Virus record (IMG/VR): IMGVR_UViG_3300045988_142892 | Origin: a virus | DNA: 64,000 nt | Direction: 5' to 3' (one strand) | Shown: positions 7,267-46,912 of the stretch, piece after piece | Layout: the number at the start of each line of letters is the position of its first letter | Numbering within the stretch: position 1 is the stretch's first letter | The notes under the pieces: model-generated | What the model was told of the DNA's origin: nothing | The model's input: only the letters and a program-made list of their open reading frames with translations | Databases searched by the model: none | Made by a program: the position numbers and the translations under genes

Positions 7267-7466
7267 TACGGCCGTCGCCAAAATGGTAAGGCACAGGACT
7301 TTCTCAAAATCAGTTAAATGAGTTATATAATATGACGGGGTTAAGTAGTATTATATAAGTTCTGTTAGTAGGCTTCCGGTTCTATAAAACCGAGAATGTT
7401 GGTGCAAGTCCAACTTTTGAGCCCTGACTCCTGCATCTGCTGGTTCGAGTCCAGCCGGCCGTGCCA
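7267..7466 (+). tRNA. tRNA gene with about 124 nt of intervening sequence in the anticodon loop (Gln(TTG) the most likely reading)
   Basis: 5' half: acceptor acggccg, D-arm gcc-aaaatggtaa-ggc, anticodon-stem 5' cagga (7293-7297). 3' half: anticodon-stem 3' tcctg (7429-7433), variable catct, T-arm gctgg-ttcgagt-ccagc, acceptor cggccgt (perfect 7-bp pairing), G, CCA. The insert itself holds tRNA-like hairpins (gttgg-tgcaagt-ccaac; cggtt-ctataaa-aaccg). Confidence 0.55.
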
Positions 7467-7728: not shown

Positions 7729-7800
7729 TGAGGGGTAGCATAGCGGCAAATGCGCTGGTCTCTAAAACCAGATAAGTGGGATCGACACCCACCCCCTCCG
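7729..7800 (+). tRNA. Amber suppressor tRNA (anticodon CTA, reads UAG)
   Basis: Acceptor tgagggg/cccctcc (pair 1:72 is U-C); D-arm gcat-agcggcaa-atgc; perfect anticodon stem ctggt/accag with loop ctCTAaa (anticodon 7762-7764); T-arm gtggg-atcgaca-cccac; no CCA encoded. Consistent with the many in-frame TAGs in conserved domains. Confidence 0.7.
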
Positions 7801-8034
7801 CGGTGCTAAAAACAAAACCTCCTCGTGGTAGCACTGGGTAATGCTAATTTGTTTATAAAGGTAATAAAGGCAATATGTATAAAAGTCATTGATAAGTCCT
7901 TTTATACGATAGGAAGTAGGATTAGAAGCGTCCATCTTTTAAAGAGCGAAATGCGGCGATCGGGTATTTCCTTGGTCCAGTAGACACACTATCGGAGGTT
8001 GTGGGTTAACCTAATTAAAACCCTCAAAATAAAA

Positions 8035-8983: not shown

Positions 8984-10506
8984 ATGTCATATTTTAATGC
9001 TAGTTTGGACTGTGAAAATGGTACAATATATTGCTCTGGATCAGTAGATCCTCCTGTCATTACATCAATAGAACTTTATATTCGTATTAAAATAAATGGT
9101 ATAGACTCTGGTTATATTTATGTTGGAAGCGGTTCAAACAGAATACGTTTTAATGAAGAGATTCCAAATTATGATCATGTTAACTTTGATAGTTATAATG
9201 ATTATGAATTAATAGTATTAGATGGTGATTTATATGAATTAGGTGCTTATACTCCTTGCACTGGTTCTTTTTATGCTTCATCATCGGGAGGAGGAGGAGG
9301 AGGCGGTGGATCGGGCGGAACTGATCCAATGTACGCTTGTTATGATGTTACAACTGGAAATTATATAAACGGTTGGACGCAAGGTAGTTTTGGTATGACC
9401 GCTCCCTCTTATGGTAGTAGTTATACTTATTTAGGATATTGCCCTGGTAATTCAGAATAGGAATGTTTAAATTATTATACTAATAATGGCACTACATGGA
9501 GTCAAGATTCTACTTATATAGTAGGAGATTGTAGTTATGTTATATTTTTTTATAGACAAAATTTATCTTATGCTTATATAACTTATTATTATAATGGAGG
9601 ATCTGGTAGTTATAATAATGGAGCTCAAAATGCTTTTTCAAGTACAACTCAACCTTGGAACATATATTTAGATACTCCTTCGCGCTCTGGATATAATTTT
9701 TTAGGATGGACAACAGACAATTCATCAGCTTATGTGAGTAGTCCTATACAAGCATATAATGGTTCAACTTATACATTATATGCTATGTGGTAGCGAATTT
9801 ATTATTATACCTATATAACCTATCACTATAATGGAGGATCTGGTAGTTATAGTGATGGATAGCAAGTAAGTTATTCAAGTGTCAATTCTAGTCGAACTAT
9901 TACTTTAGATACTCCAACAAGAGCAAATTATACTTTTTTAGGTTGGGGAACCAGTTCTTCTTCTGCTGATATTGGCACACAACTATAGGTGTCATCTACA
10001 AGCACTGTATATAAAACTTTATACGCAATTTGGCGTAGAAATACAATTATTGTAACTTATAATGCAAATGGAGGTTCTGGTGGACCCGGATCATAGACTG
10101 TTAATACCAATTCTTCTTTTAATATAAATGGATCTAATTTTCCAACAAAGTCTAATTATATTTTTAAAGGATGGTCTACATCGTCTTCAGCAAAAACTGC
10201 AACTTATAAAAAAGGAGCAACACCTTCAATTTCTACTGGTACATCTAATATAACTTATTATGCAGTTTGGTGGCCTGTATTTACTTGGAAAGATTATTCC
10301 AGAAGTGAAGCAAATACTTTCGCAGGATATATAAATACTTATCTAAGTAAATCAATCTCTTCTATTGATGACACAAATCCTCTGCGGTTAGTTATTTGGT
10401 TTAATGCAATAGCTACGGCATTAAACAATAATACTAGACTTGCATCAGGAGACGCAAGTTTTAAAGCACAATTAGATACTCTATTAACTGCATATAATAA
10501 TTATTA
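8984..10506 (+). CDS. Listeria-Bacteroides repeat (Flg_new-type) protein, probable virion or cell-surface adhesin; reads through 5 in-frame TAGs
   Basis: About four repeats of the pattern YNGGSGSY..G.Q....S......L.TP.R..Y.FLGW.T.......Y...Y.LYA.W; Gly-rich tract SSSGGGGGGGGSGG; TAGs at 9458, 9791, 9860, 9986 and 10094 all in frame; stop TAA at 10504; RBS aaaaaggaggaaattaaatg. Confidence 0.6.
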
Positions 10507-10513
10507 AAATTAA

Positions 10514-12528: not shown

Positions 12529-13767
12529 ATGGCTAGTAAGACCTTAAATACTCGCATCCAAATTCGCAATGACCTCGCGGCGACCTGGACTGAAAAAAAT
12601 CCTGTGCTCCTTAAAGGTGAAATGGGTGTCGAGACTGATACTCGTAAAATTAAAATTGGCGATGGCTTAAGTAAGTGGTCTGCTCTTGGTTATTCTGGGG
12701 CAGATGTTGCTGATATTGAAAAAGTTATTGCCGACAATCGTGATACTACCTATTCTTTAGAACCAGTTGCTGATCAAACTGATGCTCAAGCTCTTGGTAC
12801 AATTGAGTCTCCTAAAGATGGTGACACTGCCATTATTAAGCGTGTTATTTCTGGCGACAAAGCTTCTTATACCGCTTATGTTTATGATGGCACTTGGAAA
12901 GCAATGGATGGCAACTATAATGCTAATAATGTTTACTTTGATAAAGATTTGACTTATACGGCTAATATTGGCGTTAAGACTGTTCCCGATTCTGGCTCCG
13001 GCACTATTGCAGCTGCTGGTAAGAATGTTCAACAAGTTTTTGCTGATATTCTTGCTAAAGAAGAGAATCCTGTCACTACTCAACCTAGTGCTTCTATGAG
13101 CTCTTCTAATATTGGAGCTTATGAGGCAGGTACTGATGTAACTATTCAATACAGTATTTCTACCAATCCTGGTTCTTATACTTATGGACCTAATCCAACA
13201 GGTGTTACTTTCTCTGGTCATAAGGCTACTTTTAATGGTGAAACAGTTACTGGTGCTTCTGGAACCTTTACATCTGTTAAAGTTACTGATTCTACTAATT
13301 TAAGTATTAGTGGTTCTGTTGATTATTCTAACGGTGAAATTCCTGTGACCAATTTAGGTAATAACTATACTTCTGGTCAGATTAAGACCGGTACCAAGAC
13401 TCTTTCTAAGGGTACTTTGACTGGTTATCGTAACTGGTTCTATGGTTATAAAGCTGGCGGCGCTACTATTGATGTTTCTGCACTTGATTCTGCTAAGATT
13501 CGTGCTTTAAAGGCACAAAATGGTAGTTTCCCTGCTACTCTTAGTACAAACAAAATGCAACAGATGTTCTTTGCCATTCCAAAAGGCAGAAAAACTGAAG
13601 TGTCTGTTGCTAATAATGTTAATGGTGCTCCTTGTACTGTTACTAAAGTAACTGATGTTATGGTTGAAGGTGCTAATGGCTTTACTGCTGTTGCCTATGA
13701 TGTCTGGTATGTTAATAATGCAGCTGCTGACGGTGGCGCAAATACATATAAGATTACTGTTAAGTAA
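12529..13767 (+). CDS. Tail fibre protein (paralogue 2)
   Basis: N-terminal ATWTEKNPVLLKGEMGVETDTRKIKIGDGLSKWSALGY; Ser/Thr/Gly-rich beta-rich remainder; RBS aataggaggataatatatttatg. Confidence 0.65.
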   Translation: MASKTLNTRIQIRNDLAATWTEKNPVLLKGEMGVETDTRKIKIGDGLSKWSALGYSGADVADIEKVIADNRDTTYSLEPVADQTDAQALGTIESPKDGDTAIIKRVISGDKASYTAYVYDGTWKAMDGNYNANNVYFDKDLTYTANIGVKTVPDSGSGTIAAAGKNVQQVFADILAKEENPVTTQPSASMSSSNIGAYEAGTDVTIQYSISTNPGSYTYGPNPTGVTFSGHKATFNGETVTGASGTFTSVKVTDSTNLSISGSVDYSNGEIPVTNLGNNYTSGQIKTGTKTLSKGTLTGYRNWFYGYKAGGATIDVSALDSAKIRALKAQNGSFPATLSTNKMQQMFFAIPKGRKTEVSVANNVNGAPCTVTKVTDVMVEGANGFTAVAYDVWYVNNAAADGGANTYKITVK

Positions 13768-13783
13768 GGAGGATATATAATAT

Positions 13784-16700
13784 ATGACTCGCGAAGAATT
13801 TTTTGCCGCTAAAAATAAAGGCGCTTTATGGGATGTTGGCGTAAGTATTAACCGCACTAACCCACTGCCCCTTGATAAGAATGCGGTTTTTGATACTTAT
13901 GAAAATGCCCTTACTTATGCTAAAGGTGTTTTAGCTTATCCTGGTCAGTTTATCGCTGTCGTTGGCGAAGACGCGGTTACCGGTTATTTAATCACTGTTG
14001 CAGGTGGTGAAGGAGCTACTCTTGTTAAGCTCGCTCAAACTTCTGGTTCTGGTGATGTTAACGAGCAATTAAATGCTTTATCTACTAAAGTTAATAATAT
14101 CGTTAATGAAATTGGTAAAGCCTCTACAGATGGCTCCGATGCTACTGGTCTTTATAAACTTATTGAAGCTAATAAAAATGCTATTACTGTTTTAAATGGT
14201 ACTGTTCAGACAGAGGGTTCAGTCAAGAAAACTGTTTCTGATGAAATTGCTAAAGTTATTGGCAAAGCGCCTGAGACTTTTGATACTTTACAAGAAATTG
14301 CTACTTGGATTGAAACTCATGGTACACAAGCTACTGGAATGCAGACTGCTATTAGCAAACTTGAAACTATTCTTGAAGGTATTGGTGGCGAAGGAGAAAA
14401 GGCTACTGTAGTTGCTTATGTTACCGATGCTATTAATGCATTAAAGAATGGTGATATTAAAACTGCTTAGGATAATTTAGCAGCTCTTACCACACGTGTA
14501 GATGGACATGATACTAAGCTCGGTGAACTTGAAACTGCGATTGCTGGGGTAAAGGCTACTGCGGATGCAGCTGTTGTTGCTAACGCTAGTATCACTGGTG
14601 GAACAGCTACTAAAGTTACTTTTGATAGTAAGGGCTTAATTACTGGTAGTAGTTCTTTAGTTGCGGAAGATATTCCAAATATTGCTATCAGTTAGGTTGA
14701 TAACCTTTCTAGTGAGTTAAGCAAGAAACAAAATAATCTTGCTATTAGCGATAAATATAGTGAAACTACTTCTAAGATTGCTTCTATGAAGGATATTACT
14801 GATGCTTCTAATGCAATTCTTGGTGATTCTGCCACTGATACTGAAGCTTCTAATACTCTGGCTGGTCTTAAGAAGTATGCTGATAAAAAAGCTTCTGACG
14901 CTGAGTCTAATGCTAAAGCCGATACAAAGAGTAAAACCGATGCTCTTGATGCTCGTTTAAAGAGCGTTGAAGATGCTGTTGGTTCTACTGGTAGTGTTTC
15001 TGAAGCTATTAAAGCTGCTAAGGAAGAAGCTATTAATGCCGCTGCTACTGACGCTACAACTAAAGTTAATGCTGCTAAAACTGATATCCTTGGTGCAGAA
15101 GGTTATACTCATACTGTAAAGGATGCTTATGAATTAGCTGATGGTAAGACTACTATGGCTGAGGTTGAAGCCAAGGATTATGCTACCAAGAGTTATGTTG
15201 ATACTCAAGATGGCGTACTCAAAGGCACTGTTGCTGACCAAGATACCGAAGTTACCATTTATGGTGCTCGTAAGTTAGCTCAGAAAGGCATTGATGACGC
15301 AGCTGCTGCTAAAACTGCCGCTGATAATTACAATACTGCTTTAACTAATACTATCAGTACTGTTAAGAGCGATTTACTTGGCTCTACTGAAGATGATAGC
15401 ACTAAAGAAACCATTCGTGGCGCACGTAAGTATTCTGAAGCTAAAGCTAATGCTGTCCTTGGTACTGCTCAAGATACTGCTTCTGAAAAGACAGTTTATG
15501 GTGCATTCGCCGCAGCTAAAGCCGCACAGGACAAGGCTAATGCCAATGAAACGGCTATTGGTTCTGATACTACTACTGGTTCAGTAAAGGGTCGTATCAA
15601 AACTTTAGAAACCACTTCTGCTAGCTATGGCGCTCGTATTACTAAGAACGAATCCGATATTGCCTCTCTCGTTGGTAATATGTCTGGCGTCTTCCATTTC
15701 AAGGGCGCAGCAACTAAAACTGGTACTGAACTTTATGTAAGTGGCGCTCAAGTAGTTGAAAAAGCAGTTGGTGACGTTTATACCGTTGGCGAGGAAGAAT
15801 ACGCTTGGTCTGGATCTGCCTGGATTATGCTTGGTATTACTACCGATCTTTCTAACTATTATGATAAGAGCGCAATTGATAAAAAGATTGCAGGCTTCTC
15901 TGGGGCTTTCCACTTCAAGGGTGTTGCTAATCAATTCGATAATGTTGGTGCTCCTATTGTTTCTAATCCTGCTGAAGGTGACGTTTGGCTTGATAATGAT
16001 AATGCACAATGGGCTTGGAATGGCGAGAAATGGATTAAACTTGGTTTCTTAACTGATCTTACTGGTTATGCTACCACTGCTGAAGTTGATGCTAAAATTG
16101 AAGGTGCTCTTCAAGGACTTTATACTTTTAAGGGTGAAATTGAATCTCTTGATAATGTTGTTAGTCCAACCCGTGGCGACGTTTATGTCGTTCCTCAAAA
16201 AGATGGCTCTAAAAAGCAATATGCCTATTCTGGTGATGGCAACTGGGTAGAAATCTCTACTAATGTCGATTTAAGTGCTTATGCTTTAACTACTGCGGTT
16301 GATGAAAAGATCCGTGTTGCCAAGAATCAAGCAAATAATCTTGCTACTGAGCTTTCCGCCACTGCTGAAACTAATGCTAAAGCTTATACTGACACTCAGC
16401 TTGATACTCTTAAGGGTGGTTCTACTAAGACCATTAAAGAAATTCAAACTGTTGCTGAAAGTGCTCAAACTCAGGCTGGTACTAATGCTAACGCAATTAC
16501 TGCAATTAATACTTCTCTCACTGAGACTGGAACTGTTGGTAGAAAGATAAAAGCTAATGCGGATGCTATTAGAGCTATCCAAGAGGCAGATTATGCAAGA
16601 ATTACTTCTGAGAAAATCGCCCAGTGGGATGCTGCTCAACCTAATGTAATTGAAAAGATTCAAGTTAATGGCACTGAAATCGCAATTAGTGAAAAGACTG

Positions 16701-16870
16701 TTAATATTCCTCTTGCTACCGCAGCTCGCGCAGGTTTAATTATTAGCTCTGATGCTGAAAATGCTATTAGCGTTTCTGATACTGGTGTAGCTACTGTTAA
16801 TAATATAAATGTTAATAAATTAGTTCAAACCGCTGGTGATGAACTTATTCTTAACGGTGGAAATGCTTAA
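13784..16870 (+). CDS. Large tail fibre protein (about 1028 aa); reads through 2 in-frame TAGs
   Basis: Track ORFs 13784-14470 and 14786-16870 share one frame; TAGs at 14468 and 14693; long Ala/Thr-rich coiled-coil-like repeats (DTLQEIATWIETHG; repeated GAFHFKG...GDVW modules). Confidence 0.6.
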
Positions 16871-18542: not shown

Positions 18543-19811
18543 ATGGCAAATAAAACATTTCAAGGCCGTATTGTTCAAAAGCACGATACAGAAGCAAATT
18601 GGGAAAAAGCAACTAATTTCATTCCTTTAAAAGGCGAAATTATTGTTTATGATGATTTAAATAAAATAAAAATAGGTGATGGAAGTACTAAAGTAGGAGA
18701 CCTTGCTTTTACTAATGATTTAGACACTTTAGCTGCAATAGCTAAAACAGGTAGTTATAGTGATTTAAAAAATAAACCAACTATTCCATCTGTTGGAAAT
18801 GGTACATTAACTATTCAAAAGAATGGCACATCAGCTGGAACTTTTACAGCAAATGCCACTACTGATAAAACCATTAATATTATAGTACCTACAAAAGTTA
18901 GTGAATTAACTGATGATGTTGTAAAGGGAAAATATTTACCTCTCACTGGCGGCACTATGACGGGAAAACTGACAGTTCCGCAGGTTGAGACTGGCGATGG
19001 CAATTCAAATTTTTTCCAGTGCAGAAAATTCCGTGGCGAAGGGAACGCAGATACTTATTATCATGCCATTGATTTTGGATACAAAAACCATGACCAGGTT
19101 GATTTCCATGAGTACGGAGGAAAATGGAATTTTTACAAAAACCAGTCCGGGAAAGTTAACGAAGGCGTTTTGTGCGGCAGTATCACCAGCAACGGCTGGG
19201 AAGGACGCGCAAAACTCAAAAGCGGTTCCACTATGGTTACTTCCCAATTGACCGAAAACAGCGATGCCATTGCCACAACTGCATTTGTCCACGGGCTTGT
19301 TGATAATGTTAAGCATTATTCAGCATCCAATCCACCTCCTTATCCAGTTACAAGCGTAAATGGGAAAACAGGTGCAGTTCAATTAACAACTGCTGATATT
19401 GACCTTGATTCCAGTATTATGTTTTTAAATAAAACAAATACTATGACGGCTAATGGCAAAATTACTATGGATAGTTCATATACGCCAGGCGCTGATGGAG
19501 ATATTGCGACAAAAAAATATGTAGATAATTCTACACCAGCAACATTTACCGCTTCTAAGGCTGGTACAGTACCCGCTTCAGGAGGCGGAACCACGAAATA
19601 TCTACGAGCAGATGGTACTTGGACTACTATAGATAAAACACCAGTAATAGGTACAAATACTAATTGTGCTATTTATATTGGGACAACGGCTCCTGCTTCA
19701 GGTACCACTCCACTTCTTTGGATTGACACTACTTCTTCAACTGGATTTCTTAAATATAGAAGTTCTAACACCAGTGCTTGGACTGCCGTTCCTGTCGCTT
19801 GGACTGAATAA
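18543..19811 (+). CDS. Tail fibre protein (paralogue 5)
   Basis: N-terminal EANWEKATNFIPLKGEIIVYDDLNKIKIGDGSTKVGDLAF; RBS taaggagaaaatataatg. Confidence 0.65.
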   Translation: MANKTFQGRIVQKHDTEANWEKATNFIPLKGEIIVYDDLNKIKIGDGSTKVGDLAFTNDLDTLAAIAKTGSYSDLKNKPTIPSVGNGTLTIQKNGTSAGTFTANATTDKTINIIVPTKVSELTDDVVKGKYLPLTGGTMTGKLTVPQVETGDGNSNFFQCRKFRGEGNADTYYHAIDFGYKNHDQVDFHEYGGKWNFYKNQSGKVNEGVLCGSITSNGWEGRAKLKSGSTMVTSQLTENSDAIATTAFVHGLVDNVKHYSASNPPPYPVTSVNGKTGAVQLTTADIDLDSSIMFLNKTNTMTANGKITMDSSYTPGADGDIATKKYVDNSTPATFTASKAGTVPASGGGTTKYLRADGTWTTIDKTPVIGTNTNCAIYIGTTAPASGTTPLLWIDTTSSTGFLKYRSSNTSAWTAVPVAWTE

Positions 19812-20609: not shown

Positions 20610-20960
20610 ATGAATTATTCTCTGGACAAGTATAAGTTTTATGAGTACAATGACCCCAAGGGTAAGAAGACTGTGAGCGCGGTTTCTACGTATGCCGGTC
20701 GGACAGTCAAGGGCTATGCTAAGTGTGATCCTCGTGATAGCTTTAATGTTGAAAATGGCAAGAAGCTCGCGGCCGCGCGTTGTAATGCGAAGGTTTCCGC
20801 AAAGCGTATGAAGCGCGCTGAGTATAAGATGAAGGAAGCTCAGGCTCTTCTTGATCAGGCTCAGGCTCATTACGACAAGATGGTGAATTATTTCAACGAT
20901 GCTTCTCGTGATAAGTCTTTTGCCGAGAATGAGGTAAATTGCCTCCTTAGGGAGATGTAA
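20610..20960 (+). CDS. Hypothetical protein, member of a paralogous family (see 43557-43994)
   Basis: Shared motif GYAKCDPRDSFNVENGKKLAAARC, compared with GIAKCHPDDMDMANEKTGCNYAYKRA in the 43557 protein; RBS aaaaggtgtaaaattatg. Confidence 0.5.
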   Translation: MNYSLDKYKFYEYNDPKGKKTVSAVSTYAGRTVKGYAKCDPRDSFNVENGKKLAAARCNAKVSAKRMKRAEYKMKEAQALLDQAQAHYDKMVNYFNDASRDKSFAENEVNCLLREM

Positions 20961-21943: not shown

Positions 21944-22035
21944 GCGGGGGTAGCCGAATGGCACAGGCATCGGACTTAAAATCCGCCGGCGCGATCACAT
22001 CAAACTTGGGGGTTCAAATCCCCTCTCCCGCACCA
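21944..22035 (+). tRNA. tRNA-Leu(TAA), type II
   Basis: Acceptor gcggggg/ctcccgc; anticodon stem tcgga/tccgc with loop ctTAAaa; long variable arm; T-loop ttcaaat; CCA encoded. Confidence 0.65.
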
Positions 22036-22365
22036 TTAAATAATAATAGCTAACGGCAGTTGCCTCTAATGAAAATTAGATAGACGGGTCGGGGTTGACA
22101 TAGACAGGTCAACAGGTAGTACAGCAGTAGGTAACAAATCTGCAAGTCGAAATAAGTTGGGAAAACCAAATGATACGGCTTAGTCCTTCGTAAGAAGTTG
22201 AAGAGAGATTTTAGGTAAAAGATAACAACTTTTAACTGCTCTTCGTAATTGACCATGAAACCGGGTCATAGCTACCATATTATTATTTAAGTTAATCTAA
22301 AAGGAGTGAGTCCAATGGGTTCTCGAATGGCCATCTTTTAACATCTTTTAAAGGAGGTTAAAAGA
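22036..22365 (+). ncRNA. ORF-free region of about 330 nt after tRNA-Leu; candidate structured RNA
   Basis: No ORF; hairpins gttgacatagacaggtcaac and gaccatgaaaccgggtcat; ends at an RBS aaaggaggttaaaagaatg. Confidence 0.2.
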
Positions 22366-24764: not shown

Positions 24765-25616
24765 ATGGGTTTAGACAAATTTTATACATAGGACCATGTA
24801 GCAAGACATTGTTTTGAATTTTTACATTAGAAATTAAATATAGCCGATTCGGCTATTTATCTTGAACCAAGTGCCGGAGCAGGTTCATTTATTAATCTGT
24901 TAAATCATTATGTAGCTTTAGATATTGCTCCAGAGGATGATCGAATTACACAGTAGGATTACCTAGTTTATGAAACAGATAGAACTAATTTTATCACAAT
25001 TGGTAATCCACCTTTTGGTTCTCGATCTAAGTTAGCAATTGATTTTTTCAATAAGGCTGCGACTATGTCTGATGTAATTGCTTTTATTGTTCCTGTTTCA
25101 TTTATGAAATGGAGTGTACAGAAAAATTTAAGTTCTAATTTCGCACTTCATAGTTATACTTATTTGGAGCCTGAATCTTTCTCCTCTAATGGAGAGCCTT
25201 ATAGTGTACGCACTGTATTTCAGATTTGGGTTAAAAAAGGCAGTCAATATGATAATGGAGTTAATCTTCGTCTAACAAGGCAGCCCCCTATTTCCCATCC
25301 CGACTTTGAAATTTGGCAGTATAATGCTACTCCAGAAGCAGTAAAGTATGTGGAAGAGGATTGGAAATATGCCACATATCGTCAAGGTTATCACGATTAT
25401 AATCAAATCTTTACCCGCGATGATTATGATCATATTAAAGAAAAAATGACAGGAACTAAGAAACAGCAATTTTTCTTTATTAAACCTTTATCTGCTGAAG
25501 CAGAAAAATTAATTTTGACTATGGATTTTAATGCTTTAGCTGAAAGAAATACTGCTACTCCTGGGTTCGGTAAGGGCGATTTTGTTAGTTATTATACTGA
25601 ATTAAAGGAGAATTAA
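24765..25616 (+). CDS. N6-adenine DNA methyltransferase; reads through 3 in-frame TAGs
   Basis: Motif I LEPSAGAGSF and motif IV GNPPFGS; the ATG at 24765 shares a frame with track ORF 25065-25616; TAGs at 24786, 24837 and 24951. Confidence 0.65.
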
Positions 25617-25617
25617 A

Positions 25618-26625
25618 ATGGATATTCCTCTATCAACTTATAGCTTTAAAAATGTTGGATATAATTTAGAATCAATTTTATTATTTTATCAATCTAATAG
25701 AATTGATACAGATCTAGATTGTCAACGAGGCTACGTTTGGACTTCTGAACAAAAACAACAATTAATTGATACTTTAATTAATCGAGAAAGAATTCCAGAA
25801 TTTCATGTAATTAAAGAGGCGGATGAAGCAATTTTTCATTTCGCTGATGGAAAACAAAGAATTACTACAATTCTTAATTTTTTATCTGGTAAGTTATCCT
25901 GGGAAAAAAGTCAAGCTGATTCTAAATTTAAGGAATTATTTGGTAAAGACAATAAACTTTTCTTTTCTGATCTTCCTGAAAATTTTTAGAATATGATTTT
26001 AGATACAGAGTTACAATTTGCTTGTTATAGTAATATGACTCCAGCTTCTACTACAAAATTATTTAGAAAATTAAATAGTGGAACTGCTCTTGGTGAATTT
26101 CAAAAAGGACTCGCTGAAAATATTACTATTAAGTAGTATTTTTTAAATACATTAATGGATCATCCTGTAATTCAAAAGATTTTTTCTACTTCTAAAATAG
26201 AAAAAGGAAATGCTGAACAAGCTTTAATCAGATTAATGATTTTAATGAAAAATTTGGATGATAATATTAATATTGAATGTGATTTAACTCCTCCAAATTT
26301 AAAAAATTACTATCTTAATCTTGAGGGAGCATCTGAAGAAGAATCTTATCAGTGGATTTAGATTTTAGATATTTATCAGAAAAAGATTAAAAAGTATCTT
26401 GATTGGCTAAATACTTATACTAATTTAAATTTAAGCACTCGATCTGATTATGTTTTTTTATTTAGTACATTTTTTACTTATAAAAATAATGGCGATGAAG
26501 AATATTTAAAAATGCTTTTTGAAACTCTTAATGGAATAAGCGCTGGCTCTATAGTTGGATCTGGTTCTGATTACAGCAAAACAAATGTTAAAAAGTATTT
26601 AGAATATATTTCTAATTTAGCTTAA
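25618..26625 (+). CDS. DUF262 (ParB-like / GmrSD N-terminal nuclease domain) protein; reads through 3 in-frame TAGs
   Basis: QRGYVWTSEQKQQLIDTL...FADGKQRITTI matches the DUF262 DGQQR signature; track ORFs 25618 and 26155 share one frame; TAGs at 25987, 26134 and 26359; stop TAA at 26623. Confidence 0.55.
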
Positions 26626-45610: not shown

Positions 45611-46912
45611 ATGACTAATATTGAAATAGCTTGGAATTATTTGTATAAACAAATAAAAAATCCTTATGGGACGGCCGGACTAATGGGAAACTTAAAAGCT
45701 GAATCAAATTTTAATCCAAAAAATCTTCAAAACAGTTTTGAAAAGACACTTGGATTAAATGATGAATAGTATACAAAACAAGTCGATAATGGTAAATATA
45801 CTAATTTTATTTATGACAAAGCTGGATATGGTTTAGCTCAATGGACCTATTGGAGTCTTAAAAAACAATTATATGATTTTACAAAAAAGAAAAATACTTC
45901 AATAGGAAATTTAAATACGCAACTTGAATTTTTAATTTATCAACTTTCTACATATTATCCTACCGTTTGGAATACTTTAATAAATTGTAAAGATATATAG
46001 ACTGCTTCAAATATAGTTTTAACATAGTTTGAACGACCAAAAGATTAGAGTTTAAAAATTCAATAGTAGAGATTATATTATGGAGTTGAAATATATGATC
46101 AATTTATAGGAAAAGGTGAAGATATGAAAATTGTAGATAATTTAACAACATCTAATTATCAAAAAGGTAATAATAGAAAAATAAAATATATTGTAATACA
46201 TTATTTCGGTTCTTTAGGAACAGCAAAAAATATTAGTAATTATTTCAAAAACCCTGCCGCTAAATCATCAGCTCATTATTGTGTTGATGAAAAAGATATT
46301 ATTTATCGTAGTGTTAAAGATGAAGATATCGCTTGGCACTGTGGCACCAGAAAAGGATATAAACATCCTGAGTGTAGAAATGCTAATTCCATTGGAATTG
46401 AAGTAAGACCTTGTAAAATAAATAAATCTAATATTGTAGCCAGTGATACTGATTGGTATTTTGATCCAAAAGCATTAGAAAATACAATACAATTAGTAAA
46501 ACAATTAATGTAGAAATATAATATACCTGCGGACCACGTTATTCGCCACTATGATGTAACTGGTAAATTATGTCCTCGTCCGTTGTGCGGAACTGACATG
46601 AATAGTTATTATAGAACAAGTGGCGATTACCAATGGTAGTTATTTAAACAAAAAATTGGTAATAATATAAATATTAATGAGGAGGATGAAGATATGACTT
46701 AGGATAAATTTAATGAGATGATGGAAGTTTATTTAAATCAACAAGCCGAAAAAAATGCAAGTTCTTGGTCTGAAAAGGAAAGAACTTGGGCTGAAAATAA
46801 AGGATACATTAAAGGCGATAGTTTAAATCGTAAGATGTATAAAAAATTTATGACTCGTGAAGAAATGATTGTAGTTCTTTATAGAATTATGAAAGATAAA
46901 GGGTTGGTGTAA
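45611..46912 (+). CDS. Multidomain endolysin: phage-lysozyme-2-like domain plus amidase_2 (N-acetylmuramoyl-L-alanine amidase) plus C-terminal domain; reads through about 9 in-frame TAGs
   Basis: One frame is open from ATG 45611 to TAA 46910 if TAG is read as sense. N-terminal YGTAGLMGNLKAESNFNP...FERP is lysozyme-like; IVIHYFGS...AHYCVDE...IRHYDVTGKLCPRP is amidase_2. TAGs at 45767, 45998, 46025, 46046, 46064, 46067, 46511, 46637 and 46700. Confidence 0.55.

What the first reader, a model, noticed from the sequence alone, without database searches (positions are those of the whole stretch)
7729..7800. Amber (TAG) stop-codon reassignment with a phage-encoded tRNA(CUA) in the tRNA array
At least 13 genes stay in one frame across 1-9 internal TAG codons, and the TAGs fall inside recognisable conserved domains:
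- the DnaB N-terminal domain (60055, 60163);
- the N6-adenine methyltransferase between motif I and motif IV (24786, 24837, 24951);
- the Listeria-Bacteroides repeats (9458, 9791, 9860, 9986, 10094);
- the amidase_2/lysozyme endolysin (nine TAGs);
- the DUF262 protein, RecJ-like DHH protein, tail fibres and GIY-YIG protein.
TAA and TGA end all of these frames.

A tRNA at 7729-7800 has a perfect anticodon arm ctggt-ctCTAaa-accag, i.e. anticodon CUA, which reads UAG. So the standard-code ORF track fragments late genes, and the phage supplies its own amber-reading tRNA (genetic code 15-like; Gln is the usual identity in such phages, but that is an assumption here).
Basis: seen in the sequence. 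Interest (0 to 1): 0.8.

Follow-up and report, generated by a model that had tools for sequence, protein, structure and literature searches.

The report
Amber-to-glutamine phage with ribozyme-tailed suppressor tRNA
This gut phage reads the stop codon TAG as glutamine, using its own suppressor tRNA that is trimmed by a small self-cleaving ribozyme; this is a real and well-supported example of a phenomenon already described in other gut phages.

Summary
The finding is confirmed. ARAGORN and Rfam both call a tRNA with anticodon CUA at 7729-7800. Thirteen + strand genes carry 39 in-frame TAGs and no in-frame TAA or TGA. Pfam domains and end-to-end homologues span those TAGs.

Codon alignments to about 100 related loci make Gln the best fit in 2000 of 2000 bootstraps. 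Relatives' in-frame TAGs fall 12-fold more often than expected on window Gln codons. Two methyltransferase TAGs sit in columns that are Gln in 119/120 and 120/120 homologues.

New here:
- A minimal HDV-like 'theta' ribozyme (7802-7854) directly follows the tRNA, which encodes no CCA.
- Near-identical relatives carry three unrelated tRNA(CUA) bodies in this one slot, ahead of the same ribozyme. All three share an open 1:72 pair, G2-C71, G10 and G73.
- TAG also occurs in replication and DNA-modification genes, not only late genes. It is absent from an RNA end-repair block and from the gyrase, DNA ligase, AAA_24 and PhoH genes.
- The phage family, with contigs up to about 200 kb, mixes code-15 and standard-code members.

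All the main elements are already published (Borges 2021 preprint; Peters 2022; Kienbeck 2024), so this is a new member of a known kind. The window contains no release factor or aminoacyl-tRNA synthetase gene.

The parts
7729..7801 (+). Amber suppressor tRNA(CUA), 'type A' body. It has a U1.C72 mismatch, G2-C71, G10, anticodon loop CUCUAAA, an A54 T-loop, G73 and C74. No CCA is encoded.
   Evidence: ARAGORN; Rfam tRNA 52.3 bits; sequence.
7802..7854 (+). Minimal HDV-like 'theta' ribozyme. Its predicted cleavage site lies between C7801 and G7802, so it would cut the tRNA's 3' trailer. Layout: GGTGCT|AA|AAACAAA|ACC|T|CC|TCGT|GGT|AGCACT|GG|GTAATG|CTAA|TTTGTTT.
   Evidence: Rfam RF02682 27.7 bits over the full model, below the gathering score of 44. 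It fits the published Theta-rz layout segment by segment. P1 and P2 stay fully paired in four distinct copies with unrelated helix sequences. The same ribozyme sits behind all three tRNA(CUA) bodies in relatives.
45611..46912 (+). Endolysin (Phage_lysozyme2 + Amidase_2) with 9 in-frame TAGs. It is the most heavily recoded gene in the window: 36% of its Gln-type codons are TAG.
8984..10507 (+). Fibre-like protein with Listeria-Bacteroides repeats and 5 in-frame TAGs.
24765..25616 (+). N6-adenine methyltransferase-like gene with 3 in-frame TAGs (24789, 24828, 24954). The first and third align to invariant Gln in homologues.
25618..26625 (+). DUF262/GmrSD_N protein with 3 in-frame TAGs.
59989..61521 (+). 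DnaB-like replicative helicase with 2 in-frame TAGs (60055, 60163).
55037..56050 (+). GIY-YIG domain protein with 4 in-frame TAGs.
63263..64000 (+). DHH/RecJ-like protein, cut by the window end. It has in-frame TAGs at 63470 and 63740 and a third at 63998, the last codon of the window.
5047..5904 (+). NAGPA + SPOR cell-wall protein with 2 in-frame TAGs.
13784..16870 (+). 1028-aa fibre-like protein with 2 in-frame TAGs.
32676..41684 (+). TAG-free set of RNA end-processing genes: a Pol-beta-type nucleotidyltransferase (32676), metallophosphoesterases (33676, 39137, 41124), an RNA ligase weakly similar to the DRB0094 family (35173) and a polynucleotide kinase (40615). These are candidate enzymes for healing the 2',3'-cyclic phosphate left by the ribozyme and completing the CCA end. 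That role is inferred, not shown.
   Evidence: No TAG in the block 26898-43371, P = 2.5e-5. Kienbeck et al. report the same gene classes enriched in theta-ribozyme phages.
751..806 (+). Second, variant HDV-like element directly after tRNA-Glu(CUC), which also encodes no CCA. L3 reads TC instead of CC, and P1.1 is reduced to one pair.
7268..7466 (+). Interrupted tRNA just upstream of the suppressor, with a 123-nt insert in the anticodon loop. The mature anticodon is UUG (Gln) or UUC (Glu), depending on a 1-nt choice of junction.
   Evidence: ARAGORN -i; conserved with its insert in all ten close relatives.

Best explanation
The window comes from a large AT-rich phage of the human gut; related contigs reach about 200 kb and its replication genes resemble those of Firmicutes phages. 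The phage uses genetic code 15, in which TAG encodes Gln, for a subset of its genes.

Proposed mechanism, step by step:
1. The phage encodes a tRNA with anticodon CUA inside its tRNA array.
2. The tRNA is made as a precursor. Its 3' trailer is an HDV-like theta ribozyme that cuts itself off after C74, leaving ...G73-C74 with a 2',3'-cyclic phosphate.
3. That end is healed and extended to CCA, either by host enzymes or by the phage's own TAG-free phosphoesterase, kinase and nucleotidyltransferase genes.
4. The host glutamine-charging system loads the tRNA with Gln. This would be GlnRS, or non-discriminating GluRS followed by GatCAB.
5. The charged tRNA then outcompetes host RF1 at UAG.

Genes needed before the suppressor is active contain no TAG. 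The endolysin, fibres and several replication and DNA-modification genes need the suppressor to be made full-length.

Shown here: the tRNA, the ribozyme fold, the in-frame TAGs, the Gln meaning and the gene-by-gene partition of TAG. Inferred: the order of processing steps, which enzymes act, and any role in timing.
For: tRNA(CUA).

Continuity of ORFs across TAG.

Gln identity:
- At the 37 window TAG columns where relatives have a sense codon, log-likelihoods are Q -90.2, E -119.6 and K -121.4. Q wins 2000 of 2000 column bootstraps.
- At 193 window positions where a relative has an in-frame TAG, the window residue is Gln 62 times. That is 32% against a 2.7% background, 12-fold enrichment, p = 3e-48.
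- TAG exchanges mainly with CAA, which is two mutations away, so this is not simple mutational proximity.
- Methyltransferase TAGs at 24789 and 24954 align to Q in 119/120 and 120/120 homologues. The three homologues I checked translate correctly under code 11.

tRNA identity: G73, G2-C71, G10, U35, A37 and a non-G1-C72 first pair match the bacterial Gln set. The tRNA fails the Glu, Trp and Tyr sets as tabulated by Giege and Eriani 2023, and its G73 is incompatible with the A73 of the bacterial Tyr and Leu sets in that table.

Ribozyme.

Link between suppressor and recoding: all 11 recoded genomes examined have a tRNA(CUA) in the same slot. Standard-code relatives L108 and L109 have tRNA-Gln(UUG) and no suppressor. 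Standard-code relatives use TAG as a real stop at 16 of 165 orthologous gene ends, against 4 of 452 in recoded ones.

Partition of TAG: none among 132 Gln-type codons in the block 26898-43371 (P = 2.5e-5). None among 94 in the gyrase, DNA ligase, AAA_24, PhoH and four other TAG-free genes of the 44-63 kb region (P = 5e-4).

Literature: Borges et al. and Kienbeck et al. describe the same system.
Against: There is no direct protein evidence for the inserted residue. Glu is the second-best fit, and some TAG columns favour Glu in relatives (59976, 63740), so partial Glu insertion cannot be excluded.

The ribozyme scores below Rfam's gathering threshold, and its P1 has 6 pairs against 7 in the published example.

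The nucleotidyltransferase cannot be shown to be a CCA-adding enzyme.

TAG in DnaB and other replication genes does not fit a simple 'late genes only' timing model. The TAG-free status of some genes could partly reflect their different base composition (GC 42-46%, preference for CAG) rather than selection on timing.

The host, and therefore its route for charging Gln, is unknown.
Confidence: 0.9

Rival explanations
1. TAG is read as a sense codon, but as another amino acid, or as a mixture. Glu could be inserted through a non-discriminating GluRS if GatCAB does not amidate this tRNA. Trp, Tyr or Ser could be inserted depending on the tRNA body. The 90-nt type B body in near-identical relatives has a long variable arm like Ser, Leu and Tyr tRNAs.
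For: Glu is the second-best fit, and 10 of 37 TAG columns have Glu as the commonest residue in relatives. In L015 two TAGs replace GAA/GAG. Type B has a long variable arm and G73, which resembles Ser identity. Kienbeck et al. predicted non-Gln isotypes (Trp, Ile, Tyr) for about 30% of ribozyme-linked suppressors.
Against: Gln beats Glu by about 29 log-likelihood units and wins every bootstrap; Ser, Tyr and Trp are far behind. Invariant-Gln columns in the methyltransferase carry TAG. Phages carrying type A and type B share TAG at Gln-conserved columns, and a type B phage has a new TAG at 55829, where all 51 other relatives have CAA or CAG. The Glu identity pairs G1-C72 and U2-A71 are absent, A73 (required for Tyr and Leu) is absent, and C35 (required for Trp) is absent.
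Confidence: 0.07
2. The in-frame TAGs are true stops. The genes would then be pseudogenes, split genes or assembly errors, and the tRNA(CUA) would be a non-functional relic.
For: None beyond the standard-code ORF track looking fragmented.
Against: Only TAG interrupts frames, never TAA or TGA. Pfam domains and full-length homologues span the TAGs. The same TAGs are kept across independent assemblies and across relatives down to about 70% identity, and they exchange with CAA/CAG. Essential genes such as DnaB and the endolysin would be broken. The suppressor slot is occupied in all 11 recoded genomes examined.
Confidence: 0.01
3. TAG encodes pyrrolysine, as ARAGORN's 'tRNA-Pyl' label suggests.
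For: Only the ARAGORN label.
Against: The label is assigned to any CUA anticodon. From established knowledge of tRNA-Pyl, it has a shortened D loop without G18-G19 and a 3-nt variable loop; this tRNA has a normal D loop with G18-G19 and a 4-nt variable loop. Pfam scans of the ORFs of 100 aa or more found no PylS or PylBCD genes. The TAG columns match Gln, not Lys.
Confidence: 0.005

Closest known systems
Code-15 (TAG to Gln) recoded gut phages: crAss-like, Lak, and the large 'gemstone' clades of Borges et al. (bioRxiv 10.1101/2021.08.26.457843; published in Nat Microbiol 2022, from my own knowledge). Metaproteomic validation for crAss-like phages is in Peters et al. 2022 (PMC9523058).
   Same: Low-GC genome, phage-encoded tRNA(CUA), and in-frame TAG concentrated in lysis and structural genes with variable use in replication genes. 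Relatives within one clade use either code 11 or code 15. Most such phages carry no release factor or synthetase gene.
   Different: No near-identical genome is in the annotated phage collection. The replication genes resemble those of Firmicutes phages rather than the Bacteroidota phages studied experimentally. I could not assign the window to a named clade.
Theta ribozymes: minimal HDV-like ribozymes 3' of phage tRNAs (Kienbeck et al. 2024, PMC10879173).
   Same: The cleavage site lies within 1 nt of the tRNA end and the tRNA encodes no CCA. The domain order is the same, with the conserved ACC-T-CC-NCGT-GGT, GG and CTAA elements. The element is linked to a suppressor tRNA in a code-15 phage. 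An RNA ligase of the DRB0094 type and a nucleotidyltransferase are encoded in the same genome.
   Different: P1 has 6 pairs rather than the 7 of Theta-rz0001, and the sequence was not found in the truncated copy of their tables that I could search. Here one ribozyme allele sits behind three unrelated tRNA(CUA) bodies in near-identical phages. A second copy after tRNA-Glu(CUC) belongs to a variant class with a weakened P1.1.
E. coli amber suppressors charged by GlnRS: supE, and tRNA-Trp and tRNA-fMet amber derivatives that become Gln acceptors (Giege and Eriani 2023, PMC9976931).
   Same: A CUA anticodon (U35) combined with G73, G2-C71, G10 and a weak or open 1:72 pair is the combination that directs Gln charging.
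   Different: Here the 1:72 pair is an outright mismatch (U.C, U.U or C.U) rather than U1-A72. The 3-70 pair is not G-C and position 38 is A rather than U. The host synthetase is unknown.

Membership tests
Genetic code 15 phage (TAG = Gln) | In-frame TAG inside genes whose reading frame continues, with TAA or TGA as the real stops | tested here: met
   39 TAGs in 13 genes. Pfam domains and homologues span them. Gene ends are 60 TAA and 16 TGA.
Genetic code 15 phage (TAG = Gln) | The TAG positions correspond to Gln in homologues | tested here: met
   Q is the best fit in 2000 of 2000 bootstraps. The reverse test gives 12-fold Q enrichment, p = 3e-48. Invariant-Q columns in the methyltransferase carry TAG.
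Genetic code 15 phage (TAG = Gln) | A phage-encoded suppressor tRNA with anticodon CUA | tested here: met
   ARAGORN and Rfam. Present in all 11 recoded genomes examined and absent from the arrays of standard-code relatives L108 and L109.
Genetic code 15 phage (TAG = Gln) | Gln is actually inserted at UAG during infection | not testable with these tools
   This needs proteomics. It has been shown only for two crAss-like phages, by Peters et al. 2022 (abstract).
Theta / minimal HDV-like ribozyme | Nested double-pseudoknot layout P1-J1/2-P2-P3-L3-P3'-P1'-P1.1-L4-J4/2-P2', with G1 at the cleavage site | tested here: met
   Every segment can be placed against Theta-rz0001. P1 has 6 of 6 pairs including the G1.U wobble, P2 has 7 of 7, P3 has 3 of 3 and P1.1 has 2 of 2.
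Theta / minimal HDV-like ribozyme | Catalytic cytosine at the first position of J4/2 | tested here: met
   A CTAA junction is present at the expected place in all copies.
Theta / minimal HDV-like ribozyme | Cleavage site within +/-5 nt of a tRNA 3' end (tRNA-associated class) | tested here: met
   G1 is at 7802, which is 2 nt after the discriminator G73 (7800) and 1 nt after the end ARAGORN calls.
Theta / minimal HDV-like ribozyme | Reaches a curated covariance-model threshold | tested here: not met
   The nearest Rfam model, RF02682, gives 27.7 bits against a gathering score of 44 (E = 0.006 in the 901-nt search, and E = 0.19 in the 27.5-kb search). Rfam has no theta-specific model, and the RNArobo descriptor is available only as an image.
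Theta / minimal HDV-like ribozyme | Self-scission activity | not testable with these tools
   This needs an in vitro transcription and cleavage assay.
tRNA-Gln identity (bacterial set: G73, U1-A72, G2-C71, G3-C70, G10, U34/U35/G36, A37, U38) | Acceptor-end and core determinants | tested here: inconclusive
   Met: G73, G2-C71, G10, U35, A37 and U1. Not met: 72 is C so the first pair is open, 3-70 is A-U, 36 is A (unavoidable in an amber suppressor) and 38 is A. The Glu, Trp and Tyr sets fit worse.
tRNA-Pyl | Compact D loop without G18-G19, a 3-nt variable loop, and pylS/pylBCD genes | tested here: not met
   The D loop AGCGGCAA contains GG and the variable loop has 4 nt. No Pyl genes appear among the scanned ORFs.

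The most novel reading that the evidence does not exclude
The suppressor slot may be a swappable cassette. In phages whose flanking genes are 95-99% identical, three unrelated tRNA(CUA) bodies occupy the same site in front of one unchanged theta ribozyme: 73 nt, 90 nt with a long variable arm, and 72 nt. All three have converged on the same acceptor-end signature of an open 1:72 pair, G2-C71, G10 and G73.

The most novel reading is that the ribozyme acts as a fixed 'docking' 3' module behind which any tRNA body can be exchanged. Selection would then repeatedly reshape foreign tRNAs into Gln-accepting suppressors. Alternatively, the different alleles could be tuned to different hosts' charging systems, so that the suppressor allele acts as a host-range determinant.
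Probability: 0.2. Interest if true: 0.6.

Novelty: new member of a known kind. Interest (0 to 1): 0.35.

Why it matters
For annotation it matters a great deal. Standard-code gene calling truncates or splits 13 genes in this window, including the endolysin, the fibres and DnaB, so this genome and its relatives should be called with table 15.

For biology it adds a clean example outside the Bacteroidota phages studied experimentally. It shows that the suppressor tRNA, its theta ribozyme and a TAG-free set of RNA end-processing genes travel together. The codon-level evidence for Gln is unusually strong, because the family contains both recoded and standard-code members. The allele swapping at the suppressor slot gives a natural set of three different tRNA scaffolds that appear to do the same job. 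That set could be useful for testing which features make an efficient Gln amber suppressor.

Tried and rejected
- Megablast of 40-64 kb against the annotated phage collection found no match, so there is no annotated close relative to mine.
- Exact-pattern scans for the suppressor tRNA core and for the neighbouring tRNA-Tyr recovered only the same close relatives. I could not fetch the suppressor slot in the more distant recoded lineages.
- The combined 'CUA loop + ribozyme core' scan recovered all ten recoded close relatives whose suppressor region I had examined. It recovered none of the six long standard-code contigs, but it also missed the distant recoded contigs. The family-wide link between suppressor and recoding therefore remains incomplete.
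- The ARAGORN 'tRNA-SeC(tca)' calls in L098 and L100 are false positives inside a fibre gene, with a mismatched acceptor stem. There is no evidence of TGA recoding.
- In-frame TAGs at 43440, 43527, 43533, 50271 and in a few small ORFs lie upstream of the likely true starts. I excluded them.
- Promoter and terminator scans around the tRNA were at chance level.
- PDB sequence searches for the nucleotidyltransferase and the RNA ligase gave nothing usable.
- None of the three suppressor bodies is clearly derived from any other tRNA in the arrays, so their ancestry is unresolved.
- The exact ribozyme sequence was not in the stored copy of the Kienbeck tables, but those files are truncated.
- The idea that TAG specifically replaced CAG is only weakly supported. 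The low CAG use in TAG genes is largely explained by their low GC3.

Full report
**1.

ARAGORN finds 21 tRNAs on the + strand, 22 when intron search is switched on. One of them, at 7729-7801, has anticodon cta. The Rfam tRNA model scores 7729-7800 at 52.3 bits against a gathering score of 29. ARAGORN's 'Pyl' label is just its name for any CUA anticodon.

All long ORFs lie on the + strand. When TAG is read as sense, 13 convincing genes carry 39 internal TAGs, and every complete ORF ends in TAA (60) or TGA (16). Pfam domains run straight across TAG positions in NAGPA, GmrSD_N, Phage_lysozyme2, Amidase_2, DnaB-N and DHH. The DnaB-like ORF aligns over aa 4-508 with standard-code helicases of Enterococcus and Bacillus phages. 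The endolysin, with nine TAGs, has full-length homologues of 434-445 aa.

In frames aligned to relatives there are on average 7.4 TAG but only 0.25 TAA/TGA per locus. The same TAGs appear in four independent assemblies from other human gut samples. The methyltransferase ones are 3-9 nt off; the true positions are 24789, 24828 and 24954.

**2. Which amino acid TAG encodes**

I tested it in three ways, using about 100 related loci fetched from IMG/VR and other assemblies.

(a) For the 37 window TAG columns where relatives have a sense codon, I compared the residue profile with the substitution profile of each of the 20 amino acids in the same alignments. Log-likelihoods are Gln -90.2, Glu -119.6 and Lys -121.4. 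Gln wins 2000 of 2000 bootstraps over columns.

(b) In the reverse direction, there are 193 window positions where some relative has an in-frame TAG. The window residue is Gln at 62 of them. That is 32% against a background of 2.7%, a 12-fold enrichment with p = 3e-48. For relatives at 70% identity or more, 23 of 30 such positions are CAA or CAG. The usual partner is CAA, two mutations away from TAG, so this is not mere mutational neighbourhood.

(c) Two of the three methyltransferase TAGs lie in columns that are Gln in 119/120 and 120/120 homologues; the family motif is F-Y-T-Q. Three of those homologues, checked at the DNA level, translate correctly under the standard code, so their Gln residues are real CAA or CAG.

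Glu is the runner-up, and a minor share of Glu insertion cannot be excluded without proteomics.

**3. The tRNA is part of a larger unit**

The tRNA encodes no CCA, unlike nearly all the other tRNAs in the arrays. Directly after G73-C74 comes a 53-nt element at 7802-7854. It matches the Rfam HDV-like ribozyme model RF02682 over its full length at 27.7 bits, below the gathering score of 44.

The element fits the 'theta ribozyme' layout of Kienbeck et al. 2024 segment by segment. The window reads GGTGCT|AA|AAACAAA|ACC|T|CC|TCGT|GGT|AGCACT|GG|GTAATG|CTAA|TTTGTTT. [quoted passage not shown] P1, with the G1.U wobble typical of HDV ribozymes, and P2 are fully paired in four distinct copies with unrelated helix sequences. 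The ACC...GGT, GG and CTAA core is constant.

Cleavage 5' of G7802 would release the tRNA ending in G73-C74 with a cyclic phosphate.

That paper reports that these ribozymes sit within 1 nt of phage tRNA ends and that only 4.5% of the partner tRNAs encode CCA. A fifth of the partners are amber suppressors, and 96% of phages with such a pair are predicted to use code 15. Such phages are also enriched for a DRB0094-type RNA ligase and a tRNA nucleotidyltransferase. The window has an RNA ligase with weak DRB0094 similarity, a polynucleotide kinase, three metallophosphoesterases and a Pol-beta-type nucleotidyltransferase. Their role in healing the cleaved tRNA end is my inference. I could not show that the nucleotidyltransferase is a CCA-adding enzyme.

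A second, variant copy of the ribozyme follows tRNA-Glu(CUC) at 751-806.

**4. Three tRNA bodies in one slot**

Ten close relatives, whose neighbouring NAGPA gene is 95-98% identical, all have a tRNA(CUA) between tRNA-Val and tRNA-Tyr. The body differs between them:
- Type A, 73 nt: the window and two relatives.
- Type B, 90 nt with a long variable arm: seven relatives.
- Type C, 72 nt: one relative.

The ribozyme behind them is the same apart from one base.

All three bodies share a mismatched 1:72 pair (U.C, U.U or C.U), G2-C71, G10, G73 and the loop CUCUAAA. According to the identity table in Giege and Eriani 2023, G73, G2-C71, G10, U35, A37 and a U1 weak first pair belong to the bacterial Gln set. 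The same review notes that amber suppressors derived from tRNA-Trp and tRNA-fMet become Gln acceptors. The Glu, Trp and Tyr sets are not met, and G73 is incompatible with the A73 of the Tyr and Leu sets.

Phages with type A and type B share TAG at the same codons, including Gln-conserved columns. One type B phage has a new TAG at 55829, where all 51 other relatives have CAA or CAG. Both bodies therefore most likely deliver Gln.

A wider scan found about eight distinct ribozyme-linked tRNA(CUA) bodies in other phages. Nearly all have U1 and a weak or open first pair, and one is a second long-arm example. None of the three bodies is clearly derived from another tRNA in the arrays.

**5. Where TAG is used**

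TAG makes up 7.7% of Gln-type codons overall, but it is very unevenly spread.
- High use: 36% in the endolysin and in the repeat-containing fibre, and 19-29% in NAGPA, a second fibre, the methyltransferase, DUF262, GIY-YIG and two unknown genes.
- Lower use: 11-15% in DnaB and the DHH protein.
- No use: the whole block 26898-43371, which holds a DUF2828 RNA-binding protein, an MVP homologue, the RNA-repair genes and an SPFH protein (P = 2.5e-5). TAG is also absent from GyrA, GyrB, DNA ligase, AAA_24, PhoH and three neighbouring TAG-free genes (P = 5e-4).

So the 'late genes only' picture is too simple here. That agrees with Borges et al., who found variable recoding of replication genes.

TAG genes have the lowest GC3, 0.13-0.25. 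Five of the TAG-free genes are compositionally distinct, with GC of 42-46% and a preference for CAG and AAG. Composition, and not only expression timing, may therefore contribute to the partition.

**6. The family mixes codes**

Of 88 related loci, 32 have no in-frame TAG over roughly 1200-3400 aligned codons. Those loci use TAG as a genuine stop at 16 of 165 orthologous gene ends, against 4 of 452 in recoded loci.

On a DnaB neighbour-joining tree, recoded lineages with up to about 12 TAG per 1000 codons are interleaved with TAG-free ones. This is a single-gene tree without support values. Standard-code relatives L108 and L109 have a canonical tRNA-Gln(UUG) in the array and no suppressor. This matches the statement by Borges et al. 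that recoding arises repeatedly among close relatives.

**7. What is missing**

Pfam scans of essentially all ORFs of 100 aa or more found no release factor, glutaminyl-tRNA synthetase or amidotransferase in the window. The rest of the genome was not available; related contigs reach about 200 kb.

**8. Verdict**

It is a new member of a well-described class: code-15 gut phages with a theta-ribozyme-tailed suppressor tRNA. The part I could not find in the literature I searched is the exchange of unrelated, convergently shaped tRNA(CUA) bodies in front of one ribozyme in near-identical phages. That is a modest but testable lead.

Noticed in passing
window 7268-7466 (+): An interrupted tRNA with a 123-nt insert in the anticodon loop, closed by a CTCAAAA/TTTTGAG stem. 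Shifting the junction by one base gives anticodon UUC (Glu) or UUG (Gln). Otherwise the window has two tRNA-Glu and no tRNA-Gln. The insert is too short for a typical group I intron, has no Rfam match, and contains tRNA-like arms of its own. It is conserved with the insert in all ten close relatives. L099 and the standard-code L108/L109 have an ordinary tRNA-Gln(UUG) in that part of the array.
   Followed up: partly
window 751-806 (+); also L107 about 2960-3012: A second HDV-like element directly after tRNA-Glu(CUC), which also lacks an encoded CCA. It belongs to a variant class (L3 'TC', with 'GT' in place of the P1.1 'GG'). The same class follows tRNA-Ser(UGA) in a standard-code relative, so these ribozymes are not restricted to suppressors or to recoded genomes.
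   Followed up: partly
window 28542-31040 and 26898-28424 (+): An 832-aa homologue of the eukaryotic Major Vault Protein (PDB MVP chains, E about 1e-17 over residues 317-762; Pfam MVP_shoulder and Vault_3). It sits next to a DUF2828/DUF7788 'RNA-binding protein'. Both genes are TAG-free, have higher GC (42-44%) and use only CAG for Gln. Phage MVPs have been reported (bioRxiv 10.1101/2023.11.10.566534), and homologues occur in huge phages LR756500-LR756503.
   Followed up: partly
window 22049-22177 (+): A RAGATH-33 RNA (RF03102, 126.8 bits, above the gathering score) lies 14 nt downstream of tRNA-Leu(UAA) (21944-22035). Its function is unknown.
   Followed up: no
window 2292-2342 (+): A sub-threshold match to the type-P1 twister ribozyme (41.1 bits against a gathering score of 67.2, E = 6e-6 in the 27.5-kb search), just upstream of the ORF at 2347-2583.
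   Followed up: no
window 20610-20960, 26898-31040, 35173-36552, 41986-43371: Five genes form a distinct compositional class: GC 42-46%, GC3 0.39-0.52, with CAG and AAG strongly preferred over CAA and AAA. The rest of the window has about 30-35% GC. This suggests either recent acquisition or different expression constraints.
   Followed up: partly
window 32676-41684 (+): A dense cluster of RNA-repair and ADP-ribose-related genes: a nucleotidyltransferase, three metallophosphoesterases, an RNA ligase, a macro/DarG-like domain protein, NADAR, an HslV-like peptidase and a polynucleotide kinase. Besides tRNA end healing, it could counter host tRNA-cleaving or ADP-ribosylating defences.
   Followed up: partly
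window 12529-13767 and 18543-19811 (+); L108 18710-19936: Two fibre-like proteins begin with the Mtd_N (major tropism determinant) domain. A relative encodes a reverse transcriptase (RVT_1) nearby, which hints at a diversity-generating retroelement in this family. No reverse transcriptase was seen in the window.
   Followed up: no
window 1215-1290 and 6602-6676 (+): Rfam calls an extra tRNA at 1215-1290 (39.1 bits) that ARAGORN misses, and a weak tRNA-like match at 6602-6676 (25.4 bits, below threshold). Fragments resembling tRNA T arms also follow tRNA-Val at about 7019-7050.
   Followed up: no
L009-L088 (DnaB region of relatives): Within one phage family, recoded and standard-code lineages are interleaved on the DnaB tree. 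Some nearly identical DnaB groups contain both kinds of member (for example the L036 group, with 4.1, 3.5 and 0.0 TAG per 1000 codons).
   Followed up: partly
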